A stretch of 64,000 nucleotides of DNA from an uncultured Christensenella sp. (GTDB lineage: Bacteria; Bacillota; Clostridia; Christensenellales; UBA1242). Where the stretch lies: positions 9,685 through 73,684 of the forward strand of contig CASDOR010000029.1 in assembly GCA_949282135.1 (NCBI GenBank), read 5' to 3'. Position 1 is the stretch's first letter. The number at the start of each line of letters is the position of its first letter. Under the pieces are notes generated by a model. The model was not told where the DNA came from. It did not search any database and saw only the letters and a list, made by a program, of their open reading frames with translations. The translations under genes and the position numbers were made by a program. Below are positions 15,965 to 54,331 of this stretch, in pieces.

Positions 15965-18900
15965 TCAAACCTGCAACACTATGTTAGATAGTTGCCCTCC
16001 AGTTTCAATTGGTTCTTCAAGTATTACCATCTCCAAATTATTTTTAAGAATTAGATACATATCTGAACTATTAATTATAAAATCTTCATATGTATCTTGA
16101 TTTCCTGTTTTTGTGAGTAGATGCGTATAATCATAACTGCTCTTATTAATTCCAGACTCTATAATACTTTCTGTCCCCATGCTGTCAAGATTGCTAGAAT
16201 AAGTACTGCTGATAGTGATGTCACTTAAATCATCTAAACTAGTTTGATAAATTACTTCATCTAAATTAGGTACGTGAGGAGGCTGATTATATGTTTTATC
16301 ACAATCGCATTGTCCGTAAATCTTATCAAGAATTTGCAGATTTTGATACTCCTGAGTTATATACCCATCCTTCTTTGTTGCATCTCTAGTTTCACCACTT
16401 TCCCCTGTTGTATATCCCACATCTTGAAGTGCATCAAAGGTAAAGTTTTTAAAATGATATGTCGTACTAAATTCTACGTAGTAAGAGTTAAACACATAAT
16501 CATTATGACTTGGATAAGCAACAGCTTCATTTTCAAATCCGCTTCGTGAAGTTGTTTCTGTTTTCATAAGTAAATTTTCATTATAAACACCCTCTTCAGA
16601 TGTAAGTAACTCGGCTGGACTAATAACTTTTTCAAGACCTAAAATTGCCAATTGTGCATAACTATTTATTTCTTTACCAGCAAATAAGTCAGGATTATTA
16701 GTTCTTGTTAGCCAATATTCTACACGTGGTAACACCATGGCTAGGTCCCACCCACCTGTTTCTAGATTAGGTGTATAAGTATACGTAGTAATATCAACAC
16801 GGAAACCTACAATATATGCTTCTTGATTATCCAATAAATGTTCATTTCTATCCGCCCAATTAATTGTGGCATCGTCAAAAGGTTCACCCTCTATCTTAGT
16901 TGGATGTTGTCCTACAACAGTACTCTCGCCTTCATCACTTCCTTGGTTAACAATAGTAATGTAATCAGTTTCACCCTCAGATGTTTGAGCTCCACCTTCA
17001 AGATAACCCACAATTTGTCCACGTTTATCGGAAACATAAGAAGTAAATGCAAGGTCATTCTCATCACTTCCTTCCTCAACTATATAGGAATTATTCCTAT
17101 CATAATCAACGCCAGATTCTGAAAAATCATAACCATAGAAATAGTAACCAGAAATAGTGCCATTATTTATACCTCTAACGTAAAGTTCCTTTGTCACATC
17201 TTCTGAACCTTCTACAGCTGTTGTGATATGACCTTTTCCAACAATACCACCAACTGAACCTTTGTGATTTGAGTTGAAGTCACTAAATCGAGTTTCATTA
17301 CCCGAAGAGACTATATCAAGTGAATTTAAATTTCCTTGAGCCCACAAACTTATGTTGCTTGCAGCAGGATTTGTTAGACTATAGAATGATAGATCCCCAT
17401 TATTGATAGCTCCATCTATAACTGCTGAAATTGCCTCACCAGCAATACCACCTACGTTTACATTTGGGGTAAAGCCTATAATATCCGCATCATTTACACA
17501 GTCAATAATGTTGGTAAATGTTGCTGTACCTACTATTCCACCTTGACTTGCAACTAGACTTCCGTCCCCACTTGCTCCATTAAACAAGTCAAACTCGTTT
17601 GTACAATTATAAATGTTACCATAGTTGCTTGCGCCAACTATACCACCTACAGAAATGTTACTTCCGCCAACTAATGTTATAGCAGTTCCAGATTGCTGAG
17701 GCATTGTCACGTAGAATACAGACGAATCATTAAGATAACCCACAATTCCACCAATATAATCTCCTTCAACTGAACAACTAAGTGTTACTCTAAGCCTTGC
17801 ATCCTCATCTTCTCCGCCTAGCTTTGCATTATTTTCGAGTGCACCTACAATTCCGCCAACATATTTTCCACTAATCGTACCTTGTGAAGTAAAGTCTAGA
17901 TTTGTCCTAAGTTCTATTCCATCTACAAGCCCAATAAGTCCACCTGCATAGTTTTCACTCTCAATGTTAACAGTTACGTCATTGTTTGCAGTTAATTTTT
18001 CTACTAGAATATTTGCTGAAATATTTGTCGAGTCCTCCTCAGCACTTATTATTCCAATAATTCCACCTGCAGCAGCATTACCTTTTATAGTAACATTATT
18101 TGGAATATAGCTATTATCGACTTCTCCAGAAACATATCTACCTATTAATCCGCCCGCATATTCCGAGCTAACATTTGAAACTTGTAAATTTGATATATCT
18201 GGGAAGGACTCTTCACTATTAAATTCACCAATTACACCACCGCCGTACATACCGCCATCAACTTCAAGCCCCGTAAATGATTTTCTAAAACTTCCCTTGT
18301 TAAATAGTCCTATAAGTCCACCAAGAGCAATTCCTTTTGTATCGCCGTTTTCCTCATCAACACCAATTCCTATAGCGGTAACTTTAAAATTTTCACCTAT
18401 AATATCATTTTCAACAAAACCGCCACCTGAAATAACACCACCATTCATTTGTCCAACTATACCACCACCATAGAAGCCATCTTCATTTACAGTTACATTC
18501 CTCGCTAGTCCACTTCTGATTTCACCATCCTCAAGAAGCCCTACAAGCCCACCTACAATTCTACCACTTACACTTGGCGCTTCTATTGTGTATGAGTCTT
18601 CTCCCTCAGCAAGTCCTAGTGTTCCGTCAGCCAATATACCCACAAGTCCGCCAATGTAACCTGTTACAATTTCTTCACTTTCTTCCCCAGAGCCACTTTC
18701 TTCTCCAGAGCCATTTTCTTCTCCAGGAATTTCGGCGCTAGTAATTGTTACATTGTCTGGGTTTATATCTGCCCTCTCTATATTTCCGTAAGAAATTCCA
18801 GCGATTGAACCTGCAGCATCAATACCACTTATATTGACAGAGTATAATTTTGTACTAATATCAAAACCATTAGCCATTCCAAGCATTGTGTCCTTAAATA

Positions 18901-30900: not shown

Positions 30901-33900
30901 CAACAAGACCTGGACCACTAACATTAATAATAGTACGTGGAGCAACATTTGCAAGATATTCTCTTCTTACAATAGTTGATTCTGAGTTGTCTGTTCTTAA
31001 AACCTCAACACTTTCTCGACCCACACGTGAATTAGTAATTATACCTGTATTTTGTCCTACGAGACCCCCAATATACACATCGTGACTGCCCTTTGTGTTA
31101 AAATTGAGAGTATAACTATAATTAGTTTCTCCTCCAAGAGTAATAACATCACAGTTTGTTATAATACCATTATTGATTCCCGCTATACCACCAAAGTTAA
31201 TTTGAGCGTAGTGAGTTAAATCCATAGCACTATCCTTATTATTTGGAAGTGCAACAATGACATTTTTAACAATATTGTTACTATTTATTGTACTAAAGAG
31301 TCCCATATTAGTTGAATTTGCATAATCCGCATTGCCAACTTCATATTGGAAGCTATTAATAGTAATAACTTTATTATTTCCATCAAAAGATGCAAAGTTT
31401 GCCGTAAGAGGCTTATGTAAATCTATAGACAAGTCATTCATTAAAATGTAATTGCCTGTACCATCATCTTGCTCAATAAGTCTTAAATCCTCTTCGTCAT
31501 AGATAGGAATAAGATCCTCTTCTTCTCCCTCTATAACACTCACGGTAAAGTAAATCTCCTCAACAAATTCTGTACTTGCAAGATCATTTGGAATTAAAAG
31601 CACCCTACCATCTCTATACACATAAGACATTCTGAGAAGCATAGATACACTACCATATGTAATTGCCCCATCAAGATAAATTGTATCGTAATTTACACTA
31701 AATGTTTGATTTTCACCAGAAATCAAACCTAAATCAGTGCCACTAATTGTTATAACACTTGCCTCATCATTACTTGTTGGTAATTGATTAACAACAAAAG
31801 GAAGATAAGGTGCTAAATCAATGGACGTAAGTGTAAAGTATTGTCCACTACCTGCAATACTACCATACCAATAATAAGGCACACGAGATCCTGAACCTGA
31901 AACGTAACGAGAAATCGACTCAGCAATACTACTAAGAGCATCACTTGTTCCAAATCCATTTATCTTAACTCTAAGTGGTCTTGAAGAAGATATATTCATC
32001 TTGACGTCATTATTGTCATCCATACCCTCAATACTTAGACTTTCAATCACCGCATCTACAACAGTAATTTCTTTTACATAACTTTGGGTAGTTTCATAAT
32101 CTTCATAATCAAGCTCGACATTAAGACTAACTACAATCTTATCTCCAACTTGTGCTCTTGGCCCAAGTCTAAGCACACTTCTATCCTTGTAATCTTCAAC
32201 AACAGCATAATCAGCGCTTTGCCCCATATTTTGTCCGTTACTAATGACAGAGTAGCTAATAGAATAATCATGTCCATCGGTTACACTTGCAAAAATATCT
32301 ATCCAGTCAGGGGTTGTAGCATTTTCAGTATTAATTCCAGTGTAAGCAATTATTTCTCTTTCCTCACCCTCATGAGATAATTCAAGGTTAACATTAGGAT
32401 TAGTCATGACATGAAGAGTTTTTACAGCTGTCCTTGTAACATTTATAAGTTCTCCCTCTTCATTTAATGCTTGATACACAACATTAACCGTAATATCAAA
32501 ACTATCCTCCTCACTAAGCGATGATGGAGCAATTGTTCTAACATAAAGCCTACCTAGATTAGGGTAGCCTTGCTCGGAACTAAAGGCATAGGAAATCTCT
32601 CCATTTAAAATTCCGTTTGTCCCTTGAACAACAATCTCAGCATTAGGCATTGACGAAACTAGATTTAGAGACGTACTTCCATCTGAATTAATAGTTGTTG
32701 ATGGCCCATACACATAATAATATTTATTTGGATCAAGGGAATCTTTAACTTTTACCATTTGGACAAAATTCACTGCATTTCCTTGACTTCCAAGAGAAGA
32801 GCTAACACTTACTGATAAAATATTAGAATAGTAAGGTACTAAGTCAATTACTAGCAGCCCACCAAGTCCTGGCACAATACTGTCCGCTTGACTTGGAGAA
32901 TAAGAATAGAAATAAGTTGGAATAGTTTCTTCTCCCTCACCACCTGTCGCCCCTGTAATATTTGAAATCTGCTCTGTATATGCATAATGATTAAGAGACA
33001 ACGGATTTAGAGAAGCTGGACTAATTTTTAATTTAACATCCGCATATTCAGTCTCAAGCACTCCAGCCTCGTCATAAACCATAAGAACATATGTTAAAAC
33101 TTCTTTTTCATCTTTATATTTATCTTTAAGCGAAACTCTAACATTGTAATTGTACCCACCTTGCTTGCCTTGTGGAATTAACGAAATAATAAATGGAGAA
33201 TTTTCATTATCATAACTACTTTCACCTGTTTCTTCGTTTACAATAGTCCTATCTAAATTTACTATGTCTCCACTTGGGGTTTGAAGCTTCATACTTAGTG
33301 CTGGGATTTCTTCGGTCGCAGTTGCAAATAAAGTTACAACAAACTCTTCAGAGCCTTCTCCTTCAAGAATTATCTCACCTTCACTAATTGCAACATCGTA
33401 TGCACTTGCACGTGCATTAAGATAAAATGTCCAGTTATCATCTGTATATCTATATCTTGTGCCACTATTGTCAGTAAATACTACCGACACTGTAACTTCG
33501 TAATACCCTTCTGTAAAGAAAGTTATACCCGTACTAGTAAAATTATAGTACGTTTCTACCTCGTCAATTTCCGTAAATTCATCTATCACACTTGGACTGT
33601 ATTTTACGTCATACTCTACAGTATAGAAATTTGAGGATGGAATTTCATTTTGAGTTAAACTATCAACTAGAAGGTAATTTAAACTAGTCTCTCTATCAAT
33701 TACCACATACATTGGGTTATTCAACTTTGAATCAAAATAAGATGAAGAGTAATTTAGATTAGGAGATAACCACAACTCGTCAAAGTTTTGAACTATAATA
33801 ACATGGACATTAGATTCAACCATACTATTTTCTTTAAGTCTAAAATTAAGATCTATCTCTCCCGTCCTATTAATTATAACTCTACCATCATTCGTAATTG

Positions 33901-36900
33901 TAAGTACGTTGTTAGAATTATCAATTTTACTAACAATTATTTTTACATTTTTAATTCCCTCTGGCAAGGTTGAGACCTCAAAGAGTGAACTTAAATCAAA
34001 CTCTGAATTATATGTGGAATAATTAATAAGTAAAACATTATGTTTCTCATTATTTAAATCATTATATGAATAGTTATAGAAGACATTCCTGTCTAAATTA
34101 GTTGTAAAATCTAAAACGTATTCATCACCATCTTGATTTAATAAAGCCTCACTTCCTGTACCAGTTACGTCTATTGACGTTGGTAAATCACGTAAAAGAT
34201 CACTTCTCTTTACGATTTCTCTTAATTCATAAGCATCTCCATTTAACACATAGGAATTAAATATGATATTTCCATCTACAACTTCAGTACCATAATCATC
34301 ATCTTCATATTTAAGAGAAACAAATGTATCTTTTACACCATCAGCATTTATATCTCCAGCCTTTACTCCCTCTTCGTTTGCATAGGTTAAAATATAATAG
34401 AATTCAACCCTAGTTTGACTTCCCTCACTTACACCAAGAAGTTCGTTAACATTTTGGCTATCTTCTAGTGCGTTAAAAGCTCCTATATAAAATACACTAT
34501 CAACACTTACATTTCCTGCTCCAAATAGTCCTCTAACATTGACACTTTCTTGGGACACAATATTAAATGTAGAGAATACAATAGACGCACTAAGTCCAAC
34601 ATTTTGACCACTAATACCTCCAGCATATACATCCCCTTCACCATAAACATATATGTCACCATAATTTATGTACATGTCGTCAAATTTATCTTGATATCCA
34701 TATGAATACGAATCTTCAATAGTACCATTTGCTATGTTTCCAACAATTCCGCCTACGTTATTTCTACCAACAATAAGGGTGTTGTCTCCGTCTCCAGCTT
34801 GTCTATAACTTTCAACAAATACGCCATCTAGTTTTGCATTATTTGAAGTCGTACTTGAGAAAAGTCCAACCGCACCACCAACATTATCTCTTCCTCTTAC
34901 CTTTATACTTGTGAGAGAATTTAAAATTTGCCCAGATTGAGTATTAATTCCAACAATTCCACCAACATTATCATTTGTTCCATAAAGAGTATTGTTACTA
35001 AAATCAAATCTTCCAATTTGTCCATCAACAGCAACATTTGAAATAAGTCCATTTTGACTTAATCCCGCAACACCACCTATACTTGAATCACTTGAAGTTA
35101 TACTTCCTCCGCTCACATTAATCTCAACATTAACATCTATCCCTTCATTTTGATAAGAGGTAACAAAAATAGTGTCATTTTCGTCAATTTCCTTATTATA
35201 TACACCATAGTATCCATTAATTCTACGAGTGTTCTTACCAACTAAGCCACCCACGTAAGTCGTGTTTGTACTTGTTATAGCCATTTTACCTGTACTATAA
35301 ATATTTGCAATACAATCATCTAAATTAACATCATTTGGAACATTACCTGTATCATACTTCGCAAATATGCCAGTATCAGTATTTACTCCAAAGTACTTTT
35401 GCGCAATAACATCATCAGTTTCATTATTTTTATGTACATCAATACTAAAGTTGTAAATTACACCATTATTTGTGCCAACTAAGCCTCCAATATTTGCTAC
35501 ACTACTAGTACTTACAATAATATTGCTAAATTCGACTGCAACATTCATTACAATACCATTATTAATACCAGCAAGAGCACCTACATTCATTTCAGTAGTC
35601 ACATCTCCCCTAATGTTAATAAGTGAAACATTAAGTTTTAAATCGTAAACAGTTCCATATCTAGAAATAACACCTAGATCATCATAATAATTATCTATAC
35701 TCTCAAACAATCCAACATTACCACTTTCAGTCAAATAACTAAGTTGTAACCCAGAGATTGTATGATTATTTCCATTTAAAACACCATTAAAGCCCTTAAT
35801 TGGTTCCTCCCAATTAGAATTTAAAACAATGTCAGCTACAAGTACATAACTCTTGTCTGGTTCTGCCTCAATATTTTTTAATTCATAACTATTACTAATT
35901 GAATATGCATGAGTTACGCCATCTTCTATAATAATATGTACTACTCTTGACACATCGTAAACATCTTCACTTGTAAAACTATCTTTTGCGATAATTAATA
36001 TGTCAAATTCCCCACTCACATCTTCATTTACATTAAGCGTAAATCTATCCATGGCATTAATTACAATTTCACTAACATTGTTAGAATTACCATATGTAAG
36101 GCCTGCAAGTGTGCTTACATCTCCATCTTCACTACTAAGCCTTACAATAAGATCATCTACTAAAACTTCTTCTGGATTAATGAAAGTCCTAATGTCAACA
36201 CTGCTTCCATTTCTTACTCTAAGTTCATAAGTCTCGTCAGTTTTATCTACAATTGCCTCTGTTCCATTTTTAGATGCTGTAATGTCTATATCTTCTACCT
36301 TTACCGCCCTTCTAATGGTAATTGTGTATGATCTACTTGTCTCAAAACCAAATTCCGACACGACGACAGTAAACGTAATTGTTTCCACGTCTCTTGCGTA
36401 AGTAGGAAGAGAAGCTATTGCACTAAAGTTACTAGTCACAACAACATTGCTTCCGTTTTCATAAGTAACACCTTCTAGATAGTTTATCTTTCCACTTTCT
36501 ACTTCAAATCTAACAGCAGTTGGGTCTTTTGCGACTGTTGCATCACTACCTATTATGCTTACTCCTATTTGAATATTTGCTAAACTCTCATTATCATAAG
36601 ACAAAGAATTTACATCATAGAAAATATTTGCATTAGGTGTTAAAGAAAAACTTTCCATTGGTATATAAACTTGCAAAGTAAATGTTTTAACATATTCAGT
36701 TTGTCCCCATTGATAAAAGTTACCTAATCCAGCACTAAAAGTGTAATATGTAATAGTTGTCGTAATAGACACTTGACCTTCCTTCACACCACTAACTCGT
36801 CCCATGCTTGATACAGTCGCAACTGTGTTGTCACTTGAAGTATAAGACTTACTAATAACCCCTGAAGCATTGGTTTTATAGGTATCTATAATGTTAAACG

Positions 36901-39208
36901 AATATCCATATTTCATTGATACATAAGGTTGTGTTGGATTATCTAATTCGTCATCAAAAACAGTATTTATAACCTGTGCTTCAATTGATAAATCAACCTC
37001 TGTTATTATATCAACTACTTTAACCTTTACTGTTGCTTGATAGCCATTTTCAGCGGTAAAGAGAATACTTGTTTCACCTACCCTTAACCCCTTAAAAGCA
37101 ATAACTCCACCAATTTGAAGTTCACTTTCATCATACGCACCACTAAAGAAGGCTTCTAAGTTAGAATCAGATTCACTTGAAGTCACTTCTTCAATAATGC
37201 TTTCGTCATAACCACTAACTTCAATTTCACCCTCAACATCACTATCAAAGAAATATGCTATCAAAGTGCCATTTAAATTTCCTGCCCCTAAAACTAATTG
37301 TTGATAACTTGGATCTGCCGAAAGATTATAGTTATCAAGGTTAACAAAATCATTGACACCCTTAATTGCTTTTACTTCAATATTCTCAACACCCTTAGTC
37401 GTAAGGACATTTGTATCAACTTTTTCTCCTTGTATTGCTCCTATAATTTCACCTTCACGAGTCATTATCTCATGACTAACAAGATTCTCAAAAGTAAGAC
37501 TAAAAGAAGCATTTTCATTAACACTTCTTGCCCTTAAATAAAAAGTCTTATTGAAATCATCGCTTAAATCTAAATCAAAATAATAATTAGTAGTTCCATC
37601 AATTTCAATAGTGTTTAGTGCTATCTCAGACCCATTTGCGTTAATAACAATTAGGTTGTTACTTACTACAATATCACTTGTTTGTCCCTTTAAGTAAACT
37701 CTAACAATTTTATTATCGCTTAAAATTCCAGACCTAGAGCTAAGACTAACTTCAAATTTGCTACCATTTTGATTCTTTGTCACTGCATAAGAATCAAAAA
37801 TTGTAATCTCATCAGTATCAATAGTTGTTCCACCATCTCCAGCACGTAAAATAGTTTCCCCGTCTTGAGAAACACTTATAAGATCAGAAACGAGACTCAC
37901 ATCAAAAACAAACTTTGTGTATTTTTCATAGTCTTCAAGAGAGTTATAATCTGACTCTGCTAGGCTCTCAAGGTAGTCGTTGTACAAATCTCCAAAACTA
38001 AAACTTATGTCATTATCAAATCCATAATTAAACACAAAATCGACATATGCAGTACCTGCATTGCCGGATCTAATTTCAAAAAATTTATCTTTATTTGTTC
38101 CGCTTGAAGTTATTTCTAAGACATTATTTTGGCTTACAAAAGTTTCGCCTTCAAATATCATATCTCCTATAATGTAAGAAATATCTATATCTTCCGCACT
38201 ATCAACAAAAACTTCCACTTTTTCATAATTGTATGAATAGCTAGTACTTCCAATATTGTAAGTTGAGTCCACATTGTTATATAAACTAGTGTTAAGTTTA
38301 ACCACTCTATTACCTGCTACATCATCACGATAGTTTTGAAAGCCAACTTGTCCGCCAGTAATTACAATATCATCAAGAGTAATAGGTGTTACAATTTCAA
38401 TATCTTCAGTATCTATAAGTCTGTTGTTATTTTCTCTAAGTTCTTGTTTCTCTTCTTCGGTAAGATCACTCGACTCTAAGTAGGATTCTAGGTCATCATC
38501 ATATTTTTCAGATTTAGCAACAACACTCACAACCCCATCAAGAGTAGAATCCAAAACTTGAAGAAGCCCATTTTCTATATCAAAAGCAGGTGTGCTAATT
38601 CCTTCAATATAATACGCTCCGTCTCTTTCTTCAACAATAGAACTAACACCCTCTTCATTAGTGTAGCCATCAATTACAAAACTAACACCTCTTTCATCTG
38701 GCTCATAACCAGTCCCAAAGTCACTATAAAATTCAACTTGGCTGTTTAGGTCTAAACCTTCACCAATCATAATTCCAAGATTGTCCGCCAAATTTATTTC
38801 AGAAGTAGGTAGTAAGACTTTAAAGTAAAGATTTAGTTCTCCTCTGTTTGTTTCCCTTGACCTAACGTTGACTCTAAAGGTTTCGTTGCCCGATGGCATG
38901 TCCGCACGGAAGTCCGCACTGTTTGAAGTTACAGAACTTGAAATCACAGGAAAATTTTCGCTACTAGTAAAAACCACATCTCGACTAACCTCGCTAGAAG
39001 ACGAGACACTTGCATTAACCGTAATCGTATCTCCGTAGTAAACCTCGTAATAGTTGCCATTGCTGTTATATGTAACCTCTCTACCAGAATCACTTGTGAT
39101 AGAAGTCAAAACAACTCTCAGGTCTGCATACCTATCCTCATTGCAAGCAAATAATACGCCTGAAAACGAAAGCATCAAAATAGATAAAAAAACTAAAACC
39201 TTTTTCAT
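15965..39208 (-). CDS. Giant surface lipoprotein A (7,747 aa). It has N-terminal Ig-like/Big_2 regions, six entry-module plus GLUG-type repeat arrays, and a unique C-terminal domain.
   Basis: This is a complete ORF in the track. The ATG at 39208-39206 has AGGTG 5 nt upstream, and the stop is TGA at 15965-15967. The N-terminus MKKVLVFLSILMLSFSGVLFAC-NEDRYADLR carries lipobox LFAC (Cys codon 39143-39145). A Big_2-like string, SSDNTVATVSSMGRVSGVKEGQVSITTTI, lies at ~36760-36870. GG[ILV][IVA]G motifs recur throughout. I saw no HExxH, Walker, KS/AT/A/C or other catalytic motif. Confidence 0.95.
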   Translation of the reverse strand: MKKVLVFLSILMLSFSGVLFACNEDRYADLRVVLTSITSDSGREVTYNSNGNYYEVYYGDTITVNASVSSSSEVSRDVVFTSSENFPVISSSVTSNSADFRADMPSGNETFRVNVRSRETNRGELNLYFKVLLPTSEINLADNLGIMIGEGLDLNSQVEFYSDFGTGYEPDERGVSFVIDGYTNEEGVSSIVEERDGAYYIEGISTPAFDIENGLLQVLDSTLDGVVSVVAKSEKYDDDLESYLESSDLTEEEKQELRENNNRLIDTEDIEIVTPITLDDIVITGGQVGFQNYRDDVAGNRVVKLNTSLYNNVDSTYNIGSTSYSYNYEKVEVFVDSAEDIDISYIIGDMIFEGETFVSQNNVLEITSSGTNKDKFFEIRSGNAGTAYVDFVFNYGFDNDISFSFGDLYNDYLESLAESDYNSLEDYEKYTKFVFDVSLVSDLISVSQDGETILRAGDGGTTIDTDEITIFDSYAVTKNQNGSKFEVSLSSRSGILSDNKIVRVYLKGQTSDIVVSNNLIVINANGSEIALNTIEIDGTTNYYFDLDLSDDFNKTFYLRARSVNENASFSLTFENLVSHEIMTREGEIIGAIQGEKVDTNVLTTKGVENIEVKAIKGVNDFVNLDNYNLSADPSYQQLVLGAGNLNGTLIAYFFDSDVEGEIEVSGYDESIIEEVTSSESDSNLEAFFSGAYDESELQIGGVIAFKGLRVGETSILFTAENGYQATVKVKVVDIITEVDLSIEAQVINTVFDDELDNPTQPYVSMKYGYSFNIIDTYKTNASGVISKSYTSSDNTVATVSSMGRVSGVKEGQVSITTTITYYTFSAGLGNFYQWGQTEYVKTFTLQVYIPMESFSLTPNANIFYDVNSLSYDNESLANIQIGVSIIGSDATVAKDPTAVRFEVESGKINYLEGVTYENGSNVVVTSNFSAIASLPTYARDVETITFTVVVSEFGFETSRSYTITIRRAVKVEDIDITASKNGTEAIVDKTDETYELRVRNGSSVDIRTFINPEEVLVDDLIVRLSSEDGDVSTLAGLTYGNSNNVSEIVINAMDRFTLNVNEDVSGEFDILIIAKDSFTSEDVYDVSRVVHIIIEDGVTHAYSISNSYELKNIEAEPDKSYVLVADIVLNSNWEEPIKGFNGVLNGNNHTISGLQLSYLTESGNVGLFESIDNYYDDLGVISRYGTVYDLKLNVSLINIRGDVTTEMNVGALAGINNGIVMNVAVEFSNIIVSTSSVANIGGLVGTNNGVIYNFSIDVHKNNETDDVIAQKYFGVNTDTGIFAKYDTGNVPNDVNLDDCIANIYSTGKMAITSTNTTYVGGLVGKNTRRINGYYGVYNKEIDENDTIFVTSYQNEGIDVNVEINVSGGSITSSDSSIGGVAGLSQNGLISNVAVDGQIGRFDFSNNTLYGTNDNVGGIVGINTQSGQILNSLTSIKVRGRDNVGGAVGLFSSTTSNNAKLDGVFVESYRQAGDGDNTLIVGRNNVGGIVGNIANGTIEDSYSYGYQDKFDDMYINYGDIYVYGEGDVYAGGISGQNVGLSASIVFSTFNIVSQESVNVRGLFGAGNVSVDSVFYIGAFNALEDSQNVNELLGVSEGSQTRVEFYYILTYANEEGVKAGDINADGVKDTFVSLKYEDDDYGTEVVDGNIIFNSYVLNGDAYELREIVKRSDLLRDLPTSIDVTGTGSEALLNQDGDEYVLDFTTNLDRNVFYNYSYNDLNNEKHNVLLINYSTYNSEFDLSSLFEVSTLPEGIKNVKIIVSKIDNSNNVLTITNDGRVIINRTGEIDLNFRLKENSMVESNVHVIIVQNFDELWLSPNLNYSSSYFDSKLNNPMYVVIDRETSLNYLLVDSLTQNEIPSSNFYTVEYDVKYSPSVIDEFTEIDEVETYYNFTSTGITFFTEGYYEVTVSVVFTDNSGTRYRYTDDNWTFYLNARASAYDVAISEGEIILEGEGSEEFVVTLFATATEEIPALSMKLQTPSGDIVNLDRTIVNEETGESSYDNENSPFIISLIPQGKQGGYNYNVRVSLKDKYKDEKEVLTYVLMVYDEAGVLETEYADVKLKISPASLNPLSLNHYAYTEQISNITGATGGEGEETIPTYFYSYSPSQADSIVPGLGGLLVIDLVPYYSNILSVSVSSSLGSQGNAVNFVQMVKVKDSLDPNKYYYVYGPSTTINSDGSTSLNLVSSMPNAEIVVQGTNGILNGEISYAFSSEQGYPNLGRLYVRTIAPSSLSEEDSFDITVNVVYQALNEEGELINVTRTAVKTLHVMTNPNVNLELSHEGEEREIIAYTGINTENATTPDWIDIFASVTDGHDYSISYSVISNGQNMGQSADYAVVEDYKDRSVLRLGPRAQVGDKIVVSLNVELDYEDYETTQSYVKEITVVDAVIESLSIEGMDDNNDVKMNISSSRPLRVKINGFGTSDALSSIAESISRYVSGSGSRVPYYWYGSIAGSGQYFTLTSIDLAPYLPFVVNQLPTSNDEASVITISGTDLGLISGENQTFSVNYDTIYLDGAITYGSVSMLLRMSYVYRDGRVLLIPNDLASTEFVEEIYFTVSVIEGEEEDLIPIYDEEDLRLIEQDDGTGNYILMNDLSIDLHKPLTANFASFDGNNKVITINSFQYEVGNADYANSTNMGLFSTINSNNIVKNVIVALPNNKDSAMDLTHYAQINFGGIAGINNGIITNCDVITLGGETNYSYTLNFNTKGSHDVYIGGLVGQNTGIITNSRVGRESVEVLRTDNSESTIVRREYLANVAPRTIINVSGPGLVAGFVAENTGTISSSFAKNMQIEVYDDNQGTTNIRTAGFVVNNSGFINGSFVTGFEEEQFAGQNEATNPNRILGGGLYSNGPISGFVFENTNYIQNCYSNINLSGSYSTAAKTLGILDRLNGNDANIVAASGFVFNMSENATIYTSYSLSKIGIDPNTHSAFEATLDALNVIGVKVSQQGTIENCYFLKETTENDFDTSEERAIELSNSAVIDADNTDVESGLNQFASIESFNGFAFDYSIENFANYSASNSAGVWAISLGSENSGHPELISANTIALSNRIARTTLNADGSTTTRFYYVADYELGSDNNPYLISSAEQFNNVFRAYSSDNSTTVDIASKFTGNIRLINHINFSGITPLSTSVEYTSIIGETAVFDGNYLSIYNMSLTDRSAGSHAFGLFRDIYSAGVKNLTLGVTRINAGNSTSVGALAGVIVDSNISNISLVSNGTSNSVVLGNNYVGALAGIVTSSNSGDIYHVSNIKSNVSVMGGINNDSKTSPAITSSFTIWAQIEPISLSGTSGKNLRLYNLGKDVFYAGGIAGIIDLGQEREEGSSAVLNAENVTNIHVGSYTQNVSSISTGNYSTSVSILSDYVGGMFGFIGDQTYLSRSEFIVDGGSAISGKQVAGGIAGVNFGMIAKSYVSYDVETMKEEDKYLVHYAVGSSYTRDENVTENLFSANVEEYAPRYIGGIAGINAGTDVSGSGSIVDSYNRVDVKNTGSIGVGGIVGASYIGEIRNVYTTAGLMANLNASEDVYIGGIIGRIFDNADEGYFSDAINGDKTLLLSNIVGLNMYTTSDFNALYAFDVAHPARIGGLYGYYQNEKSDRSTGIVRIDQGADIYIQSYILKDYTNSYIKTLGINDTFMIGPAQNDEGKFIPTYSDPDANGTADRDVTYIRLWGSEIDSTTNRYYDSYLAQYLSGSTTNRIEPQDYRIYFGGSNVAIDENIAIDASRFEEYNTLRDAYFSRINWPTTTWKFESSDLLPLHNYGYNSSVVLIYTAEQFMEELSTRNNAEMTYLVMNDIDFSGITDLSPITSTFSGRLIGNAVTYTDGTGTYTRYPILFNLNFNNTNVENSTYALFENVSGGSISNLNFVISNYDVRFSNSLVGDTRASVLVGNAENMTMTNVNVYSSLTSNVSRYSSSRTYSPSMEGITFNVSQGLSYNDSNVVEKVSNVSYLKLAEYVIDGIEISGSFTFTLDLTNGSRFVESTGTGYTVEVKNEGEIKTNASTFGGLVASTGDSTATIENSGANVNISLLYSGSNSNVYVGSVVGFGKGYIRNASSQSYINLQSEFTGMTTVVRDISSLYLGLIAGYYQGQMENIYIDGGSILVGGEPQGERQDPYIYVSNSSSGASGAYVGGVSGNHGRYQSVGSSTSVGSIESVYVYDLSIETYIKGRQSIAGVIAKNQAVTNDIYIRQSGVTPDNSNSIVGGVSNGGILVHLNDESSNPSVGGVFGENSTATIENIYSNISIKVDATVYNRLYLGGIIAQSTSDLRLINVVSDAEKLEVVKNLIEKDGLTYYENDILYVGGILASGVSLSLEQAISTVDIIVNQESSMFVGGAVGTVEVLSVVNVIILSDITLKRGTGSSNSYFYIENGSYYVGGLVGQILSSFTVSGRADELVLVASTIRDYAIAQKLDARIHSVIGGDITSITYNGDMAKVYFNENISLVSNSNRTSVSGGNIGGITIVSTGVDSFSAISQRELGTQFTKIFNMFTYNDGGEILRLETVLEVEDSYSSLYSTYLENDSFTSGSKLNPIEYSSGGSLTNSTYYILSDDLNLSASIYSTNYTNWVLNAEGHSISVVSNGVTLPIFDTITEGSAVVGVLVTVDGDTRVDNNFSAISRVNYGFVFSCGVSGDILNSVRTPQSVSSVVSNNYGVLNRVFSLANITSDGAAGLVLYNGQNDSYIGNIYDSYYTGSINASGSSENSVYTGLAFRSTYGVISNSYTMADIDAPEDEGSLSKVYPVVGHEAGEAETKQNLYRTYYDYVAYLGSNEGKRIDDILSTTADNVSFISRDGIYVWTTTYSGDLSLDNISDPNIGESVTMLDILQTSWIGVSNQFELTNNYARVSQNDSLIIDTTWFNFGYLTKDMQNIFVGEDEAANTKKYFDMLYTGSGLRDINNVRGENPPRLKTATEAGGFEDMPYSIKHGGLLDMLVVENCREATPVYRYYIFTRDINLIKYQKGTYWSENWDKINAIFYGNLDGDNKDVSNMFATYGLVRAIPNTENLIINNKEAQEVVVKNITFNRGNYSKTGLIAGYVGGGTISNITVTDEGRGGASYVYNGNILQLLSKEDYKLFCKDDGENSQLEPQYEILEEVLTSINMKVLVGNSDPITESDYIPNNDIYSDRDSKKTTFAGGLVGIMNGGVITDIVINGLTVMVYNEVSESDGTKIDLSKRLNEISYTGGIVGIMNGGTITSDAIDSIVSSDVAGEIDIQKMTVATSLKASQRVQTFSYVGGIAGYIGGGQSRIKGIVMGQGSSRDISIYSMYSAGGIAGMLDGGNIEDCTYSIHNDFSEARGVRIGYLNWEAGTEDGSQMQTIVKNLSTGSDVPSYEDRGDTSETIYITEIYLGGIAGVMGSGIIRNSNFGGGEYTAAINLYPHSLGGLYTIYVGGIVGDVYSKDSLIIDNCHITGVLLLKTAQEGVVGGIIGRMRGGTITNCTAKEGSNITALIGDPVAYSYENFDENGFDEVFAEVGDYLADMWDSGKLWSDLLSPQFKELIGGWEGSGQYGGVNLDHFFEYVGYIGFANDGYSVAGGIVGRMIYGELNGKTETGEGSSISNSANITSNYSAGGIVGEILNKGISDSTSVRITNVTSSGIISGIGAIKVDVSGSARVVGESSFNTIKDIFSDLVGSQYGLDPTLIANIAAGLTHSIAGGIVGYAMVENTSRNIDHIVIENATSTGKVGSNLATFSGGIVGLVSNKSRGNVYIKNCTSNASLLGYLVRSFAGGIVGFLEGATIEDCQYNASLIALFETLFGDSAPSGKDIGEEVASFFKDFTQSILGIPNVIGGIVGYMNSGYIYDCKTASDSSEFFLPGVLLGVRVSGGIVGVMAGGTVQANSIIFNNNIVMSLYGIAGGIIGVISGNNARLNTFGRHLSVASIIEGVEKYLDNSGGNMSGFEEAFNTIFGGLDNEGNPLNGAGIMVNGPTGMVVGFISGGIIGFFDKAQYSEFTGAFNFGRVYSNIAMIFSASEVISSSRSIASRIEEAESDGEIDDNEFDDLLLTVSENLGLFGFEFSTGVTVDGQELPLIEIGASTNLLGIFDLGLEGSLDFGLDDLDDVSFVDYFLNIVVNRYTWNNKWSVDTSGGTSTFGGLTANSNICNIGDDYFDKRFATVDNDLSTDNVDVQLEDVPAGRGSSGGIIGYKTGTMDLTLSMTFSYGIELPTYVGALFTSSVASSGIAGGIIGMAEAGLIVTASANFMPVIGRTAGGIVGYADSNTVQVVSFNPNFKFDSIADMVNEMLNQNLLYGQVQNAGLINGEIFAGGIIGYAREATINTAEIESFLSPHEIGLYIRWNNSVAQSDTLFNTPNFTDWSILQVVNGGSVYSGKYAGGLIGYMDAGSAIYMAKVAPGLGTALSSIEGIVDSIFKGSELQIYGGYAGGVTGFMQDGHISGTVSVGKTGGNSLINRSVVRIAAARYAIKSDGNGKPIAPSLEDYIYGGYAGGIVGIMRNGEIGSTKLVGTENVFLQTTLNASVNFGLSDSGSQKAMFVGGAVGYYDKPGQIMQNYTGNIHVSVNGTISNGLYTGGIFGRVDEGSLVDFSTGKSIGSGDETYPVVDVLGLSRGLTDIDMQNINSVQTLSQSTRLGVNDEDGESTFTVRGVAGSYTGGIVGYLKNGTIRNVISGIKVVGDANSVAGGVVGFMDGGEISNVTIAKVTTKEGTFGDNAEAVILYGEQLITLDNGDYTQHTGSIGGIVGLATISEENTDPKYEEGVKIRNAVMLASMSGGNYAGGIVGNLDKGTVEYSYAVSDTEDAYYAGAIAGRIGKGGQILTSSIGVFKDTMLGMANGFDISTKLYSVNISGIDAAGSIAGISYGNIERADINPDNVTITSAEIPGEENGSGEESGSGEESEEIVTGYIGGLVGILADGTLGLAEGEDSYTIEAPSVSGRIVGGLVGLLEDGEIRSGLARNVTVNEDGFYGGGIVGQMNGGVISGGGFVENDIIGENFKVTAIGIGVDEENGDTKGIALGGLIGLFNKGSFRKSFTGLEVDGGMYGGGVIGEFNSEESFPDISNLQVSNVSSEYAGGLIGRYVSGEVDNSYIPNNVTIKGNAAAGGIIGIISAEEDSTNISANILVEKLTANNDVTVNIESENYAGGLIGLVDGIELRTNLDFTSQGTISGKYVGGIVGALENNAKLGGEDEDARLRVTLSCSVEGDYIGGIVGYLNDSSVFYVTMPQQSGTAITLVGGSNISVGGIVGASNYGNIYNCTNEFDLFNGASGDGSLVASQGGIVGTATFTNIIDCVNDADIIGFTPNVNVGGIAGEAISAVIDGAINNGDLSFYSLTNPAASNISLWAQGNLNSLDIVSSGNETRFSDFNSNHKGSVGGIVGKGHITTAVEGSEDVTKELYVRGINNGTISGYYFYGYDFSESGVDYDRNNSYIVEEGSDENDLAFTSYVSDKRGQIVGYLEGGAQTSEGETDYITIVNQGSDEGESTVVGQHPTKIEGEPFDDATINWADRNEHLLDNQEAYIVGFRVDITTYTYTPNLETGGWDLAMVLPRVEYWLTRTNNPDLFAGKEINSYAQLAILGLEKVISPAELLTSEEGVYNENLLMKTETTSRSGFENEAVAYPSHNDYVFNSYYVEFSTTYHFKNFTFDALQDVGYTTGESGETRDATKKDGYITQEYQNLQILDKIYGQCDCDKTYNQPPHVPNLDEVIYQTSLDDLSDITISSTYSSNLDSMGTESIIESGINKSSYDYTHLLTKTGNQDTYEDFIINSSDMYLILKNNLEMVILEEPIETGGQLSNIVLQV
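17200..24430 (-). repeat. Giant A repeat array 6: a continuous ~7-kb GLUG-type super-array
   Basis: The entry module is YRYYIFTRDINLIKYQKGTYWSENWDKINAIFYGNLDGDNKDVSNMF (24240-24430). By hand count, about 45 GG[ILVA][IVTAF]G motifs follow (GGLVGIM, GGIVGIM, GGIAGYI ... GGIAGEA, GGIVGKG at ~17240). They are interleaved with I-x-[ND]-[CS] rung motifs (IEDC, IDNC, ITNC, IKNC, IYDC, IYNC, IIDC). Confidence 0.8.
18677..18729 (-). repeat. Three imperfect 18-nt tandem copies encoding a G-S-G-E-E-S acidic linker inside giant A
   Basis: On the plus strand: cactttcttccccagagc / cactttcttctccagagc / cattttcttctccagga. The minus-strand translation is ...PGEENGSGEESGSGEESEEIVTG... Confidence 0.8.
25830..27950 (-). 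repeat. Giant A repeat array 4
   Basis: The entry module is VVLIYTAEQFMEEL...YLVMNDIDFSGITDLSPITSTFSGRLIGN (27780-27950). It is followed by FGGLVAS, GSVVGFG, GLIAGYY, GGVSGNH, AGVIAKN, GGVFGEN, GGIIAQS, GGILASG, GGAVGTV, GGLVGQI and GGNIGGI (~25860). Confidence 0.65.
28450..29990 (-). repeat. Giant A repeat array 3
   Basis: The entry module is NPYLISSAEQFNNVF...ETAVFDGNYLSIYNMSL...FGLFRDI. It is followed by GALAGVI, GALAGIV, GGIAGII, GGMFGFI, GGIAGVN, GGIAGIN, GGIVGAS, GGIIGRI and GGLYGYY (the last at ~28460). Confidence 0.7.
30450..31450 (-). repeat. Giant A repeat array 2 (degenerate GLUG-type)
   Basis: The entry module is YILMNDLSIDLHKPLTANFASFDGNNKVITINSF (31330-31450). It is followed by MGLFSTI, GGIAGINNGIITNC, GGLVGQNTGIITNS, AGFVAENTG, AGFVVNNSG, SGFVFENT and ASGFVFNM. 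Confidence 0.65.
34480..35810 (-). repeat. Giant A repeat array 1 (entry module plus GLUG-type rungs)
   Basis: The entry module is ...YVLVADIVLNSNWEEPIKGFNGVLNGNNHTISGLQL (35750-35810). It is followed by GLFESI, GALAGINNG, GGLVGTNNG, GGLVGKN, GGVAGLS, GGIVGIN, GGAVGLF, GGIVGNI and GGISGQN, ending at ...RGLFGAGNVSVD (~34500). Confidence 0.7.
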
Positions 39209-39274
39209 AAAAACACCTACTTTTATTATGTGACTTTCTTCAACTTTTATTTTGTCAACAACTAAGTTTAATTA

Positions 39275-39304
39275 ATTATATTTTATATTATCTTTTTTTG
39301 TCAA
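39275..39304 (-). promoter_or_regulatory. Candidate sigma-A-type promoter for giant A (TTGACA-18 nt-TATAAT)
   Basis: Plus-strand 'tgtcaa' at 39299-39304 corresponds to TTGACA, and 'attata' at 39275-39280 corresponds to TATAAT. This predicts a ~60-nt leader to the ATG at 39208, with the AGGTG SD at 39214-39218. Confidence 0.5.
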
Positions 39305-45113: not shown

Positions 45114-45203
45114 TATAAACTCACTCCAAATAAGCATTATTTAGTTGACACTACAGTCATTTTAAACAAAGAGTATTATACATTATTTTCCCAGCAAAAG
45201 CAA

Positions 45204-53310: not shown

Positions 53311-53311
53311 T

Positions 53312-54295: not shown

Positions 54296-54301
54296 AGCGA
54301 A

Positions 54302-54331
54302 ATTATAACATATTTTTTTACAACTAAGCAA
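54302..54331 (-). promoter_or_regulatory. Candidate extended -10 promoter (TTGCTT-18 nt-TGTTATAAT) whose -10 hexamer ends 6 nt before the CPBP ATG
   Basis: Plus-strand 'attataaca' at 54302-54310 corresponds to TGTTATAAT, and 'aagcaa' at 54326-54331 corresponds to TTGCTT. There is no SD between the -10 and the ATG at 54295. Confidence 0.35.

What the first reader, a model, noticed from the sequence alone, without database searches (positions are those of the whole stretch)
15965..39208. Uninterrupted 23.2-kb ORF encoding a 7,747-aa lipobox-anchored GLUG/beta-helix mega-protein with no recognisable catalytic or binding domain
What the sequence shows:
- A single open frame of 7,748 codons has a good SD, an ATG and a TGA stop.
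- The N-terminus is a classic lipoprotein signal (LFAC).
- About 1,100 aa of Ig-like/Big_2-type sequence follow.
- Then come six units. Each has a short entry module ending in F-x-G-x-[LF]-x-GN-x-[HKY]-x-I, followed by tandem ~25-50-aa rungs carrying GG[ILV][IVA]G and I-x-[ND]-[CS]. The units are separated by beta-sandwich-like spacers.
- The protein ends in a unique ~400-aa tail.

What follows from known families: the G-[LI]-hydrophobic-G rung is the signature of the Pfam GLUG motif, known from M26 IgA1 proteases and large uncharacterised Firmicute surface proteins. Here there is no HExxH or any other enzyme signature.

Inference: at about 110 Da per residue the product would be roughly 0.85 MDa and would be tethered only by an N-terminal lipid. 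This would be an extended surface fibre/adhesin class of unknown function, among the largest bacterial proteins.
Basis: partly seen in the sequence, partly recalled or inferred. Interest (0 to 1): 0.9.

Follow-up and report, generated by a model that had tools for sequence, protein, structure and literature searches.

The report
Giant lipid-anchored beta-helix surface protein
This is a real, conserved 7,747-residue gene from an uncultured gut-type Clostridia bacterium that most likely makes a very long, lipid-anchored surface fibre built from six beta-helix modules; its function is untested, but related bacteria carry the same giant protein with a cell-wall-cutting enzyme at the far end.

Summary
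The ORF is real. It lies at window 15965-39208 on the minus strand: 7,747 codons plus TGA, 833 kDa, with its own consensus promoter, a Shine-Dalgarno site and a lipobox (LFAC, Cys22). It is not an artefact. At least 13 colinear homologues of 6,560-7,993 aa exist, independent assemblies give the same lengths, synteny is conserved in two Clostridia MAGs, and dN/dS is 0.11.

The six capped beta-helix units are confirmed. Their fold matches the GLUG-type beta-helix of M26 IgA1 proteases, but there is no protease domain. Only one Big_2 domain is detectable in the N-terminal 1,100 aa. The ~970-aa spacer and the ~420-aa tail match nothing known.

- A second giant lipoprotein paralogue lies directly downstream (window 1-15792) and is cut by the window edge.
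- A sister clade of full-length orthologues ends in CHAP and/or NlpC/P60 peptidoglycan-hydrolase domains. The window protein lacks these.

The most likely role is a lipid-anchored, extended surface fibre or adhesin with a variable distal tip. The hydrolase-tipped relatives hint at contact with other cells' walls.

No database names this family. It is a new variant of a known kind (giant beta-helical surface proteins). It is not among the largest bacterial proteins.

The parts
39275..39304 (-). Sigma-70-type promoter TTGACA-18-TATAAT (12 of 12 matches), about 67 nt upstream of the start codon
   Evidence: Conserved in the closest relative L001.
39214..39218 (-). Shine-Dalgarno AGGTG, 5 nt before the ATG
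   Evidence: Read directly from the sequence. Identical in L001.
15965..39208 (-). Giant CDS: 7,747 codons plus TGA; 833 kDa, pI 4.2
   Evidence: Colinear orthologues of 7,417-7,993 aa. dN/dS is 0.11 over the first 1,008 codons against L001.
39143..39208 (-). Lipoprotein signal peptide, aa 1-22, lipobox L-F-A-C with Cys22
   Evidence: PROSITE-type rule met. Cys22 is invariant in 11 full-length proteins. The rule is met in 38 of 52 long family members that begin with Met plus a Lys/Arg; most of the rest have truncated or mis-called N-termini, and three (P0025, P0050, P0064) have an intact signal peptide that the rule as coded does not accept.
35912..39142 (-). N-terminal region, aa 23-1099. Acidic and beta-rich, starting with the conserved post-lipobox motif NEDRYADLRV. 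Fold unassigned apart from one Big_2 domain.
36755..36853 (-). Big_2 (bacterial Ig-like) match, aa 786-818; the only Ig-like domain recognised by sequence
   Evidence: Pfam 27.7 bits against a 22.8 cutoff. Present in 4 of 4 orthologues, best E 8e-9. Weak intimin hit.
34409..35911 (-). Beta-helix unit 1, aa 1100-~1600: entry cap ...FNGVLNGNNHTISGL... followed by GLUG rungs
31511..34408 (-). Long spacer, aa ~1601-2566. No family or structure match; moderately conserved at aa 2100-2300.
30089..31510 (-). Beta-helix unit 2, aa 2567-3040, ending in a C-cap (W...GHPEL). Part of the family's most conserved core.
27941..29977 (-). Beta-helix unit 3, aa 3078-3756, ending in a C-cap (W..W...NYGY). Part of the conserved core.
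28409..31411 (-). Family-defining conserved core, aa 2600-3600: 50-63% identity among 11 full-length proteins with almost no gaps. It is the only region shared with the downstream paralogue and with all 156 library hits.
25643..27937 (-). Beta-helix unit 4, aa 3758-4522
24479..25642 (-). Beta-helix unit 5, aa 4523-4910 (weak rungs)
17219..24478 (-). Beta-helix unit 6, aa 4911-~7330: one cap followed by a ~2,400-aa array with about 40 canonical GLUG rungs. Variable among orthologues (20-35% identity, many indels).
   Evidence: aa 6850-7275 is modelled as a regular beta-solenoid with pLDDT of about 70-90.
16241..17218 (-). Shared tail element, aa 7331-7656, with the motifs GYYFYG, VSDKRG, WADRNE, AYIVGF and ALQDVGY...IYGQCDC. 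Recognisably homologous only in P0003, P0004 and P0006-8. No known fold.
15968..16240 (-). Unique C-terminal extension, aa 7657-7747. It occupies the position where sister-clade orthologues carry a Gly/Ser linker plus CHAP and/or NlpC/P60 domains. There is no Cys-His motif, and the model is low-confidence.
1..15792 (-). Tandem paralogue: a second giant lipoprotein gene (ATG at 15792, lipobox FVGC, at least 5,264 aa) that runs off the left edge of the window, so its C-terminal tip cannot be seen
   Evidence: about 30% identity over aa ~2570-2950; caps at aa 2583, 3185, 4071, 4698, 5079; Glug 47.2 bits.

Best explanation
The gene encodes a cell-surface protein of about 0.83 MDa.

How it most likely works (all steps inferred):
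1. It is exported by Sec.
2. It is lipid-modified at Cys22 and so tethered to the outer face of the cytoplasmic membrane of a monoderm, spore-forming Clostridia bacterium.
3. From that anchor an acidic, all-beta chain extends outward: about 1,080 aa of beta-rich domains (one recognisable Ig-like Big_2), then six serially capped right-handed beta-helices of the GLUG type, then a fast-evolving non-enzymatic tail.
4. The last helix is a ~2,400-aa rod, and the tail would be the distal tip.
5. It works as a long, semi-rigid, modular fibre. The conserved central double helix (aa 2600-3600) is the structurally or functionally constrained part. The variable distal rod and tip make contact with something outside the cell, such as other cells or polymers.

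What is shown: the ORF, its conservation, the lipobox pattern, the beta-helix fold of two segments, and the absence of enzyme domains in this protein.

What is inferred: export, lipidation, the extended geometry (a rough estimate of 100-200 nm if fully stretched) and adhesion.
For: The gene is real and constrained:
- Colinear homologues of 6,560-7,993 aa.
- The same ORF length in independent assemblies on contigs up to 383 kb.
- 98.6-99.9% identity among six copies within one species-level cluster.
- Conserved synteny in two Clostridia MAGs.
- dN/dS of 0.11.

Surface location:
- The lipobox is invariant across the family.
- There is no other hydrophobic segment and no LPxTG.
- The protein is acidic, with low Cys content.

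Fibre architecture:
- Six caps, 53 rung motifs and Glug above its cutoff.
- The core model (pLDDT 71.9, pTM 0.82) matches GLUG-type and generic right-handed beta-helices, including the adhesins PfbA, Ag43 and Fap2.
- The distal array is modelled as a regular solenoid.

No enzyme:
- Pfam, NCBIfam, PHROGs and PDB sequence searches find none.
- Invariant residues are overwhelmingly G, Y, N and F; only one His is invariant.

The conservation gradient, with a constrained core and a variable distal rod and tip, is what one expects of a surface protein whose far end meets a changing target.
Against: - There is no expression, localisation or binding evidence of any kind.
- The lipobox was tested only by pattern; SignalP and LipoP were not available.
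- About 2,500 aa have no fold assignment: the N-terminal region, the spacer aa 1601-2566 and the tail. They could hide a function.
- The distal model has no significant structural neighbour.
- The high conservation of the central core (50-63% identity) is unusual for a mere spacer and could mark a binding or catalytic site.
- The hydrolase tips in the sister clade suggest the family may be more than an adhesin.
- Whether the chain is extended or folds back on the cell surface is unknown.
Confidence: 0.55

Rival explanations
1. Cell-wall-directed contact device. The family is a reach-out stalk whose distal end engages peptidoglycan, either of neighbouring bacteria (antagonism, epibiosis or predation) or of the producer's own outer wall layers. 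In the sister clade the tip is a CHAP or NlpC/P60 hydrolase. The window protein would be a version with a non-enzymatic or novel tip, possibly working together with the tandem paralogue, whose tip lies off the window.
For: - P0009 ends in two NlpC/P60 domains (32.4 bits, cutoff 23). P0010 ends in CHAP (42.8 bits, cutoff 26). P0015 ends in CHAP (44.4 bits) plus a weak NlpC/P60.
- P0013 and P0014 have NlpC/P60-like domains with intact Cys and His motifs.
- The tip profile's best PDB hits are Tn916-type cell-wall hydrolases and CwlO.
- All five are colinear, lipobox-bearing orthologues.
- Giant proteins elsewhere have been linked to attack on cell walls (bioRxiv 10.1101/2023.11.21.568195).
Against: - The window protein has no hydrolase domain and no remnant of one.
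- On the core tree the hydrolase-tipped proteins form one clade, and both the window clade and the ~6,600-aa outgroups lack the domain. So it looks like a single late gain, not the ancestral function.
- There is no immunity-like small gene next to the gene.
- There is no swapping of tips within a species-level cluster.
Confidence: 0.2
2. Envelope or coat component. The protein does not project outward. It lies in or on the wall as part of a protective or structural layer, comparable in role to an S-layer or sheath, with the beta-helices acting as building blocks.
For: - A consensus vegetative promoter suggests strong expression.
- Sequence is very stable within a species.
- Two or more family genes occur in tandem here and in a pig-gut contig.
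- The surface is acidic.
Against: - No SLH, CWB2 or other wall-binding or self-assembly domains were found.
- A size of 7,700 aa is far beyond known S-layer subunits.
- The distal gradient of variability fits an exposed end better than a lattice.
Confidence: 0.12
3. Beta-helix enzyme. One or more of the six helices, most likely the conserved core, is a polysaccharide lyase or hydrolase acting on dietary or host glycans, as in pectate lyase, PL6 enzymes or tailspikes.
For: - The lowest Foldseek E-value is to a PL6 alginate lyase (8bwk_A, 1.9e-4), with many lyase and tailspike hits below it.
- The core is the most conserved part and holds several invariant Asp, Glu, Lys and Arg residues.
Against: - Those matches superpose poorly (TM 0.15-0.19, rmsd about 24 A) and are generic to right-handed beta-helices. 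The specific matches (probability 0.66-1.00) are to non-catalytic GLUG helices.
- There are no Pfam hits to pectate-lyase or Beta_helix families.
- Invariant residues are mainly structural.
Confidence: 0.08
4. Polymorphic toxin or contact-dependent inhibition protein, with a conserved filament and a variable C-terminal toxin.
For: The C-terminal tail is the most divergent part between species, and different orthologues carry different C-terminal modules.
Against: - Identity declines gradually, without a sharp demarcation motif.
- Six copies within one species-level cluster share the same tail.
- No immunity gene follows; the next gene is the giant paralogue, 172 nt downstream.
- No toxin domain was found.
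Confidence: 0.03
5. Assembly artefact or pseudogene.
For: - The source appears to be an uncultured organism: the closest relatives found are MAGs, and the window's proteins are not in the public protein collection.
- One distant relative (L008) has the gene split into four ORFs.
Against: - There are no internal high-identity repeats that could cause misassembly.
- Identical lengths are recovered independently in ENA, Logan, NCBI and JGI assemblies.
- Orthologues are colinear over aa 1-7656.
- dN/dS is 0.11.
- The chance of such an open frame is about 1e-286.
Confidence: 0.01

Closest known systems
GLUG-type beta-helix of Gram-positive M26 IgA1 metalloproteases (S. pneumoniae IgA1P NTD residues 781-1070; G. 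haemolysans IgA1P) and the B. ovatus BACOVA_03286 domain (PDB 3n6z)
   Same: - The same rung motif: Pfam Glug is above its cutoff.
- The same small right-handed beta-helix fold: Foldseek probability 1.00 to 3n6z (TM-target 0.51) and 0.66-0.98 to 6xja, 7uvl, 7uvk and 6xjb.
- Both are surface proteins of Firmicutes.
   Different: - There is no HExxH and no M26 middle or C-terminal catalytic domain, no G5 domain and no LPxTG.
- In IgA1P the helix is a single gate domain next to the active site (PMC7695701). Here six helices are strung in series, and one is ~2,400 aa long.
- Sequence similarity to 3n6z is not significant (E 0.28).
Cluster of five giant (3,000-9,000 aa) extracellular proteins of Apilactobacillus kunkeei
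   Same: - Firmicute origin.
- Tandem genes for giant secreted or surface-associated proteins of similar size.
- Function unknown, presumed to be adherence (PMC10496945).
   Different: - Those proteins have type-I signal peptides and some have transmembrane domains, not lipoboxes.
- They have proteomic evidence of expression; this protein has none.
Beta-helical adhesins: PfbA (S. pneumoniae), Ag43, Fap2 and chlamydial Pmp autotransporters
   Same: - Right-handed beta-helix rods exposed on the cell surface. All appear among the fold matches.
- Pmp proteins also have a Gly-Gly-hydrophobic rung motif, GGA[ILV] plus FxxN (PMC11166332).
   Different: - The anchoring and export routes differ: LPxTG-sortase or type V beta-barrel, against an N-terminal lipid here.
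- The matches are weak and generic (probability at most 0.3).
- There was no Pfam hit to any autotransporter or Pmp family.
- Those proteins have a single helix rather than six capped units.
Giant proteins of Omnitrophota and gut Clostridia linked to adhesion and cell-wall degradation
   Same: - Very large, mostly unannotated, extracellular beta-rich proteins from uncultured bacteria.
- Some carry murein-active domains (bioRxiv 10.1101/2023.11.21.568195), as the sister clade does here.
   Different: - Those are 10,000-85,804 aa, with many transmembrane regions and SecA-like domains.
- This family is 6,500-8,000 aa, has a single lipobox anchor and has no such domains.
Cell-wall hydrolases with C-terminal CHAP or NlpC/P60 domains (CwlO, Tn916 Orf14-type hydrolases)
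   Same: The tip domains of P0009, P0010, P0013, P0014 and P0015 belong to, or resemble, these families, with the Cys and His motifs aligned.
   Different: - The window protein itself has no such domain.
- In the known enzymes the catalytic domain is attached to short targeting modules (own knowledge), not to a 7,000-aa stalk.

Membership tests
Pfam Glug (PF07581) motif-containing proteins | A match to the Glug HMM at or above the gathering score of 20.5 bits | tested here: met
   27.8 bits (aa 1101-2400, 4 stretches) and 27.7 bits (aa 2401-3700, 4 stretches). Sub-threshold but recurrent in aa 4901-7300 (16.1 and 17.8 bits, 5 and 7 stretches). Scanned as 4,000-aa pieces, the score is only 20.0.
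GLUG-type right-handed beta-helix fold | A three-dimensional match to a solved GLUG beta-helix | tested here: met
   The model of aa 2560-3560 (pLDDT 71.9, pTM 0.82) matches 3n6z at probability 1.00 and TM-target 0.51, and 6xja_P at probability 0.98. This rests on a predicted structure, not a solved one.
M26 IgA1-specific metalloendopeptidases | HExxH zinc site within Peptidase_M26 catalytic domains | tested here: not met
   There is no HExxH anywhere in the 7,747 aa and no Peptidase_M26_N or _C hit. Only one His is invariant in the family.
M26 IgA1-specific metalloendopeptidases | LPxTG-type wall anchor and G5 domain | tested here: not met
   No LPxTG and no G5 hit.
Bacterial lipoproteins (Lgt/Lsp substrates) | An N-terminal signal peptide ending in a lipobox [LVI..][..][AGS]-C, with the Cys at position 15-35 and Lys/Arg near the start | tested here: met
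   The PROSITE PS51257-type pattern is met at Cys22 and is also met in the paralogue. The Cys is invariant in 11 full-length proteins.
Bacterial lipoproteins (Lgt/Lsp substrates) | Actual diacylglyceryl modification and signal peptidase II cleavage; prediction by LipoP or SignalP 6 | not testable with these tools
   No predictor or experiment was available. No lgt or lspA gene lies in the window.
Big_2 (bacterial Ig-like group 2) domain proteins | A match to PF02368 above 22.8 bits | tested here: met
   One domain, aa 786-818, 27.7 bits, found in 4 of 4 orthologues. The claim of about 1,100 aa of Ig-like sequence is not established beyond this one domain.
Type V secretion / two-partner-secretion beta-helix adhesins | A C-terminal beta-barrel translocator or an N-terminal TPS domain | tested here: not met
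   No such Pfam or NCBIfam hits. The genomic context is that of a spore-forming Firmicute.
Polymorphic toxin systems | A sharply demarcated variable C-terminal toxin domain, followed by a cognate immunity gene and swapped between strains | tested here: not met
   Divergence is gradual. No small downstream gene is present. The tail is the same in six copies within one species-level cluster.
CHAP / NlpC-P60 peptidoglycan hydrolases | A catalytic domain with the Cys-His motifs | tested here: not met
   For the window protein there is no Pfam hit and no match to HMMs built from the orthologue tips. The feature is met only in the orthologues P0009, P0010 and P0015 and is NlpC/P60-like in P0013 and P0014.
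S-layer / wall-bound proteins of Firmicutes | SLH, CWB2, LysM, SH3 or choline-binding wall-attachment modules | tested here: not met
   None were found by Pfam.

The most novel reading that the evidence does not exclude
An undescribed family of ~0.8-MDa lipid-anchored 'reach' proteins in uncultured gut Clostridia mediates contact-dependent interactions with neighbouring bacteria. A wall-spanning stalk of serial beta-helices presents an exchangeable distal module. In one clade that module is a peptidoglycan hydrolase used to breach other cells' walls. In the window's clade it is a novel non-enzymatic or unrecognised effector or adhesion tip. This would be a monoderm counterpart of contact-dependent attack or epibiotic feeding.
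Probability: 0.15. Interest if true: 0.8.

Novelty: new variant of a known kind. Interest (0 to 1): 0.5.

Why it matters
- The family is conserved but completely unnamed. Every source label seen is 'hypothetical protein' or absent, and no Pfam or NCBIfam model covers more than short motifs.
- Together with its tandem paralogue, the gene takes up at least 39 kb of what is probably a small genome. That is a heavy investment and implies an important surface function in an uncultured lineage found in animal-gut metagenomes.
- Three features are unusual and testable: a single N-terminal lipid as the only anchor for 7,700 residues, six serially capped GLUG beta-helices, and a distal slot that holds cell-wall hydrolases in a sister clade.
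- These features raise two questions. How do monoderm bacteria export and display megadalton proteins? Do gut Clostridia use such fibres for cell-cell contact or antagonism?
- It is not a record-size protein, and nothing here demonstrates function.

Tried and rejected
Searches that failed or found nothing:
- Word-index searches with aa 1-1500 and aa 6900-7747 found only one fragment each. The family became visible only with the exhaustive HMMER search on aa 2480-3679.
- An exact look-up of the window's Mfd protein and of the giant protein found no source contig, so the organism could not be named beyond its relatives' labels ('uncultured Clostridia bacterium', 'Christensenellales bacterium').
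- The 13-sequence N-terminal alignment was too divergent for the genome scan. A three-sequence alignment worked. Its three Bacteroidota loci (L004-L006) matched only the signal peptide and were discarded.
- A metagenome scan with the paralogue's N-terminus found nothing, so conservation of the tandem arrangement is untested. A pig-gut contig does carry two lipobox-starting family genes.
- A literature search for the MAG and sample codes gave only noise.

No assignment reached:
- PDB sequence searches, by single sequence and by profile, for the N-terminus, spacer, core and tail gave nothing significant.
- NCBIfam and PHROGs gave no hits.
- The distal-end model has no structural neighbour, and the tail is modelled at low confidence.
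- The viral fold library gave only uncharacterised beta-helix proteins.
- Second-tier family tails carry only Glug.

Ideas considered and rejected:
- IgA protease: no catalytic domain.
- Polymorphic toxin.
- Assembly artefact.
- A sporulation-specific role because of the adjacent spoIIID and spoIIQ-like genes. The promoter is sigma-A-like, and the neighbourhood is otherwise housekeeping.


Full report
OBSERVATION

The window holds one uninterrupted reading frame at 15965..39208 on the minus strand. It has 7,747 codons from an ATG to a TGA. The other two frames of that strand contain 587 and 1,106 stops. From base composition, the chance of such an open frame is about 1e-286.

AGGTG lies 5 nt upstream of the ATG. 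A perfect sigma-70-type promoter, TTGACA-18-TATAAT, lies at 39304..39275. Both are conserved in the closest relative.

The product is 833 kDa with pI 4.2. It is rich in Gly, Ser, Asn, Ile and Val and has only 20 Cys. It begins MKKVLVFLSILMLSFSGVLFAC. This fits the PROSITE-type lipobox rule with Cys22. There is no other hydrophobic segment, no LPxTG and no HExxH.

IS IT A REAL GENE?

Yes, for five reasons.
- BLASTP of the protein against itself finds no internal repeat at E 1e-5, so there is nothing for an assembler to collapse or expand.
- An exhaustive HMMER search of 1.84 billion representative proteins with aa 2480-3679 found 156 relatives. They include at least 13 colinear giants of 6,560-7,993 aa that match at the same positions. 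The two closest align over aa 1-7656 at 53% and 48% identity.
- Within 90%-identity clusters, independent ENA, Logan, NCBI and JGI assemblies give the same lengths (7805-7817 aa six times; 7955-7963 aa three times), on contigs up to 383 kb. Six copies in one cluster are 98.6-99.9% identical, with only 15 gapped columns.
- Two MAGs labelled 'uncultured Clostridia bacterium' carry the orthologue in the same place: Mfd, a 583-aa unknown, a flippase-like protein, a DUF1779-like protein (weak hit), an M23/SpoIIQ-like protein, ACP, SpoIIID, then the giant gene.
- Against an 87%-identical fragment, dN/dS over 1,008 codons is 0.11.

The neighbours mark the chromosome of a low-GC, spore-forming Firmicute. 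They include SpoIIID-like, SpoIIQ-like, Mfd, Pth, TadA, RlmH and GltX genes.

ANATOMY

An HMM of the entry modules finds exactly six caps, at aa 1100, 2567, 3078, 3758, 4523 and 4911. The same HMM independently detects caps in the neighbouring paralogue.

The rung motif GG[ILV][IVA]G occurs 53 times against 0.55 expected. Rungs cluster after each cap. They form one continuous array of ~2,400 aa after the sixth cap.

Pfam Glug passes its gathering score when the protein is scanned in 1,300-aa pieces (27.8 and 27.7 bits against 20.5). It is recurrent but sub-threshold in the long array.

Units 2, 3 and 4 abut directly through C-cap motifs (W...GHPEL at aa 3024-3040; W..W...NYGY at aa 3735-3756). 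So the 'beta-sandwich spacers' of the finding are not generally present. The only long spacer is aa ~1601-2566, and it matches nothing in Pfam or the PDB even as a three-orthologue profile.

In the N-terminal 1,100 aa, only one Big_2 domain (aa 786-818) is detectable. It is present in all four orthologues tested.

STRUCTURE

It consists of short regular strands. Its specific Foldseek matches are GLUG-type helices:
- 3n6z, at probability 1.00 and TM-target 0.51.
- The beta-helix of the M26 IgA1 proteases 6xja, 7uvl, 7uvk and 6xjb, at probability 0.66-0.98.

The remaining hits are generic right-handed beta-helices: PL6 lyases, tailspikes, PfbA, Ag43 and Fap2. In IgA1 protease that helix is a non-catalytic gate; the catalytic HExxH lies in other domains (PMC7695701).

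A model of aa 6850-7747 shows a confident solenoid to about aa 7275. The tail is mostly below pLDDT 50, and the model has no significant structural neighbour. Profile searches of the core and the tail against PDB sequences gave nothing significant.

CONSERVATION PATTERN

Among 11 full-length proteins:
- The core, aa 2600-3600, is 50-63% identical with almost no gaps.
- The caps are also conserved.
- The long distal array is 20-35% identical, with 20-40% gaps.
- The tail is 11-17% identical.

Invariant residues are mostly G, Y, N and F. Only one His and two Cys are invariant (the lipobox Cys22 and C2686). The core is also the only part shared with the downstream paralogue and with the ~3,000-5,300-aa second tier of the family. 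All family members with intact N-termini start with a lipoprotein-type signal peptide, followed after its Cys by a conserved D-K-Y-x-[DN]-[LM]-K-like motif.

1. Directly downstream, 172 nt away on the same strand, a second giant lipoprotein gene starts at 15792. It has the lipobox FVGC and at least 5,264 aa, and it runs off the window edge. It is about 30% identical to the first gene over the core, has caps at similar positions, and gives a 47.2-bit Glug hit. A pig-gut contig also has two lipobox-starting family genes in tandem.

2. Five distant full-length orthologues carry peptidoglycan-hydrolase-type domains at the far C-terminus. These follow a shared tail element ('LQDCGG...LY..CG') and a Gly/Ser linker.
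   - P0009 has two NlpC/P60 domains (32.4 bits, cutoff 23).
   - P0010 has CHAP (42.8 bits, cutoff 26).
   - P0015 has CHAP (44.4 bits) plus a weak NlpC/P60.
   - P0013 and P0014 have NlpC/P60-like domains with the Cys and His motifs.
   - The best PDB hits of their profile are Tn916-type wall hydrolases and CwlO (E 0.017-0.11).

   The window protein has no such domain and no remnant of one. On a neighbour-joining tree of the core, the hydrolase-tipped proteins form one clade. That clade is sister to the clade of the window protein, and the ~6,600-aa outgroups also lack the domain. So the hydrolase looks like a single gain. Second-tier tails carry only Glug.

INTERPRETATION

The shown facts are:
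- A conserved gene under purifying selection.
- A lipobox as the only anchor signal.
- Serial GLUG-type beta-helices.
- No enzyme domain in this protein.
- A proximal-to-distal gradient of increasing variability.

They fit best a lipid-tethered, extended surface fibre whose variable far end contacts something outside the cell (confidence 0.55). Export, lipidation, extended geometry and adhesion are inferences.

The hydrolase-tipped sister clade shows that evolution has used the distal end as a slot for wall-active enzymes. This supports the idea that the tip reaches peptidoglycan, probably that of other cells. It keeps a cell-wall-contact role alive as the main rival (0.20), especially because the paralogue's tip is unseen.

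The other rivals are less likely:
- Coat or sheath role: 0.12.
- Glycan-active beta-helix enzyme: 0.08.
- Polymorphic toxin: 0.03. It is disfavoured by the gradual divergence, the identical tails within a species-level cluster and the lack of an immunity gene.
- Artefact: 0.01.

COMPARISON AND NOVELTY

- It shares the rung motif and fold of GLUG beta-helices but fails every defining feature of M26 IgA1 proteases.
- It works like beta-helical adhesins (PfbA, Ag43, Fap2, Pmp) but uses a different anchor and export route.
- In genomic style it resembles the tandem giant extracellular proteins of Apilactobacillus kunkeei (3,000-9,000 aa, function unknown; PMC10496945).
- It is not among the largest bacterial proteins. 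Predictions reach 85,804 aa, and gut Clostridia reach 10,000-30,000 aa.
- No source names any family member.

I rate it a new variant of a known kind, with moderate interest (0.5). It is a solid, well-conserved, unnamed family with an unusual anchor-to-size ratio and an informative modular tip, but it has no functional evidence.

Noticed in passing
window 1-15792 (minus strand): A second giant lipoprotein gene lies in tandem (ATG at 15792, lipobox FVGC, at least 5,264 aa) and is cut by the window edge. It is a distant paralogue of the finding with a strong Glug hit. Its C-terminal tip cannot be seen.
   Followed up: partly
orthologues P0009, P0010, P0013, P0014, P0015 (C-terminal ~350 aa): Full-length orthologues of one sister clade end in CHAP and/or NlpC/P60-type peptidoglycan hydrolase domains after a Gly/Ser-rich linker. 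The window protein and its closer relatives lack them.
   Followed up: yes
window 43386-45137 (minus strand): A 583-aa protein with no Pfam or NCBIfam match sits at the same syntenic position in both related MAGs, at 57-65% identity. It lies between mfd and a flippase-like gene.
   Followed up: no
window 52183-54331 (minus strand): Two adjacent, slightly overlapping genes each encode an Rce1-like (CAAX-type) intramembrane protease domain.
   Followed up: no
window 16000-24000 compared with 40000-62000: G+C is higher inside the giant genes (0.34-0.385) than in the flanking housekeeping genes (0.29-0.31). The likely cause is the Gly-rich composition (GGN codons) rather than foreign origin. This was not tested.
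   Followed up: no
window 39240-39275 (minus strand), between the promoter and the SD: A second TTGACA box is followed about 22 nt later by CACATAAT, downstream of the consensus promoter. It is conserved in L001. It may be an alternative promoter or a regulatory site.
   Followed up: no
L008 177-12450 and L007 118-11030: In two distant relatives the family gene is split into several colinear ORFs (757, 210, 1101 and at least 1,891 aa in L008; 2,239 and 1,363 aa in L007). This could reflect pseudogenes, sequencing errors or natural splits.
   Followed up: partly
window 1-62000 compared with 62000-64000: GC skew on the plus strand is strongly negative (-0.15 to -0.37) across the whole run of minus-strand genes. 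It turns to about zero only where the single plus-strand gene (RmuC, 61559-62893) lies.
   Followed up: no
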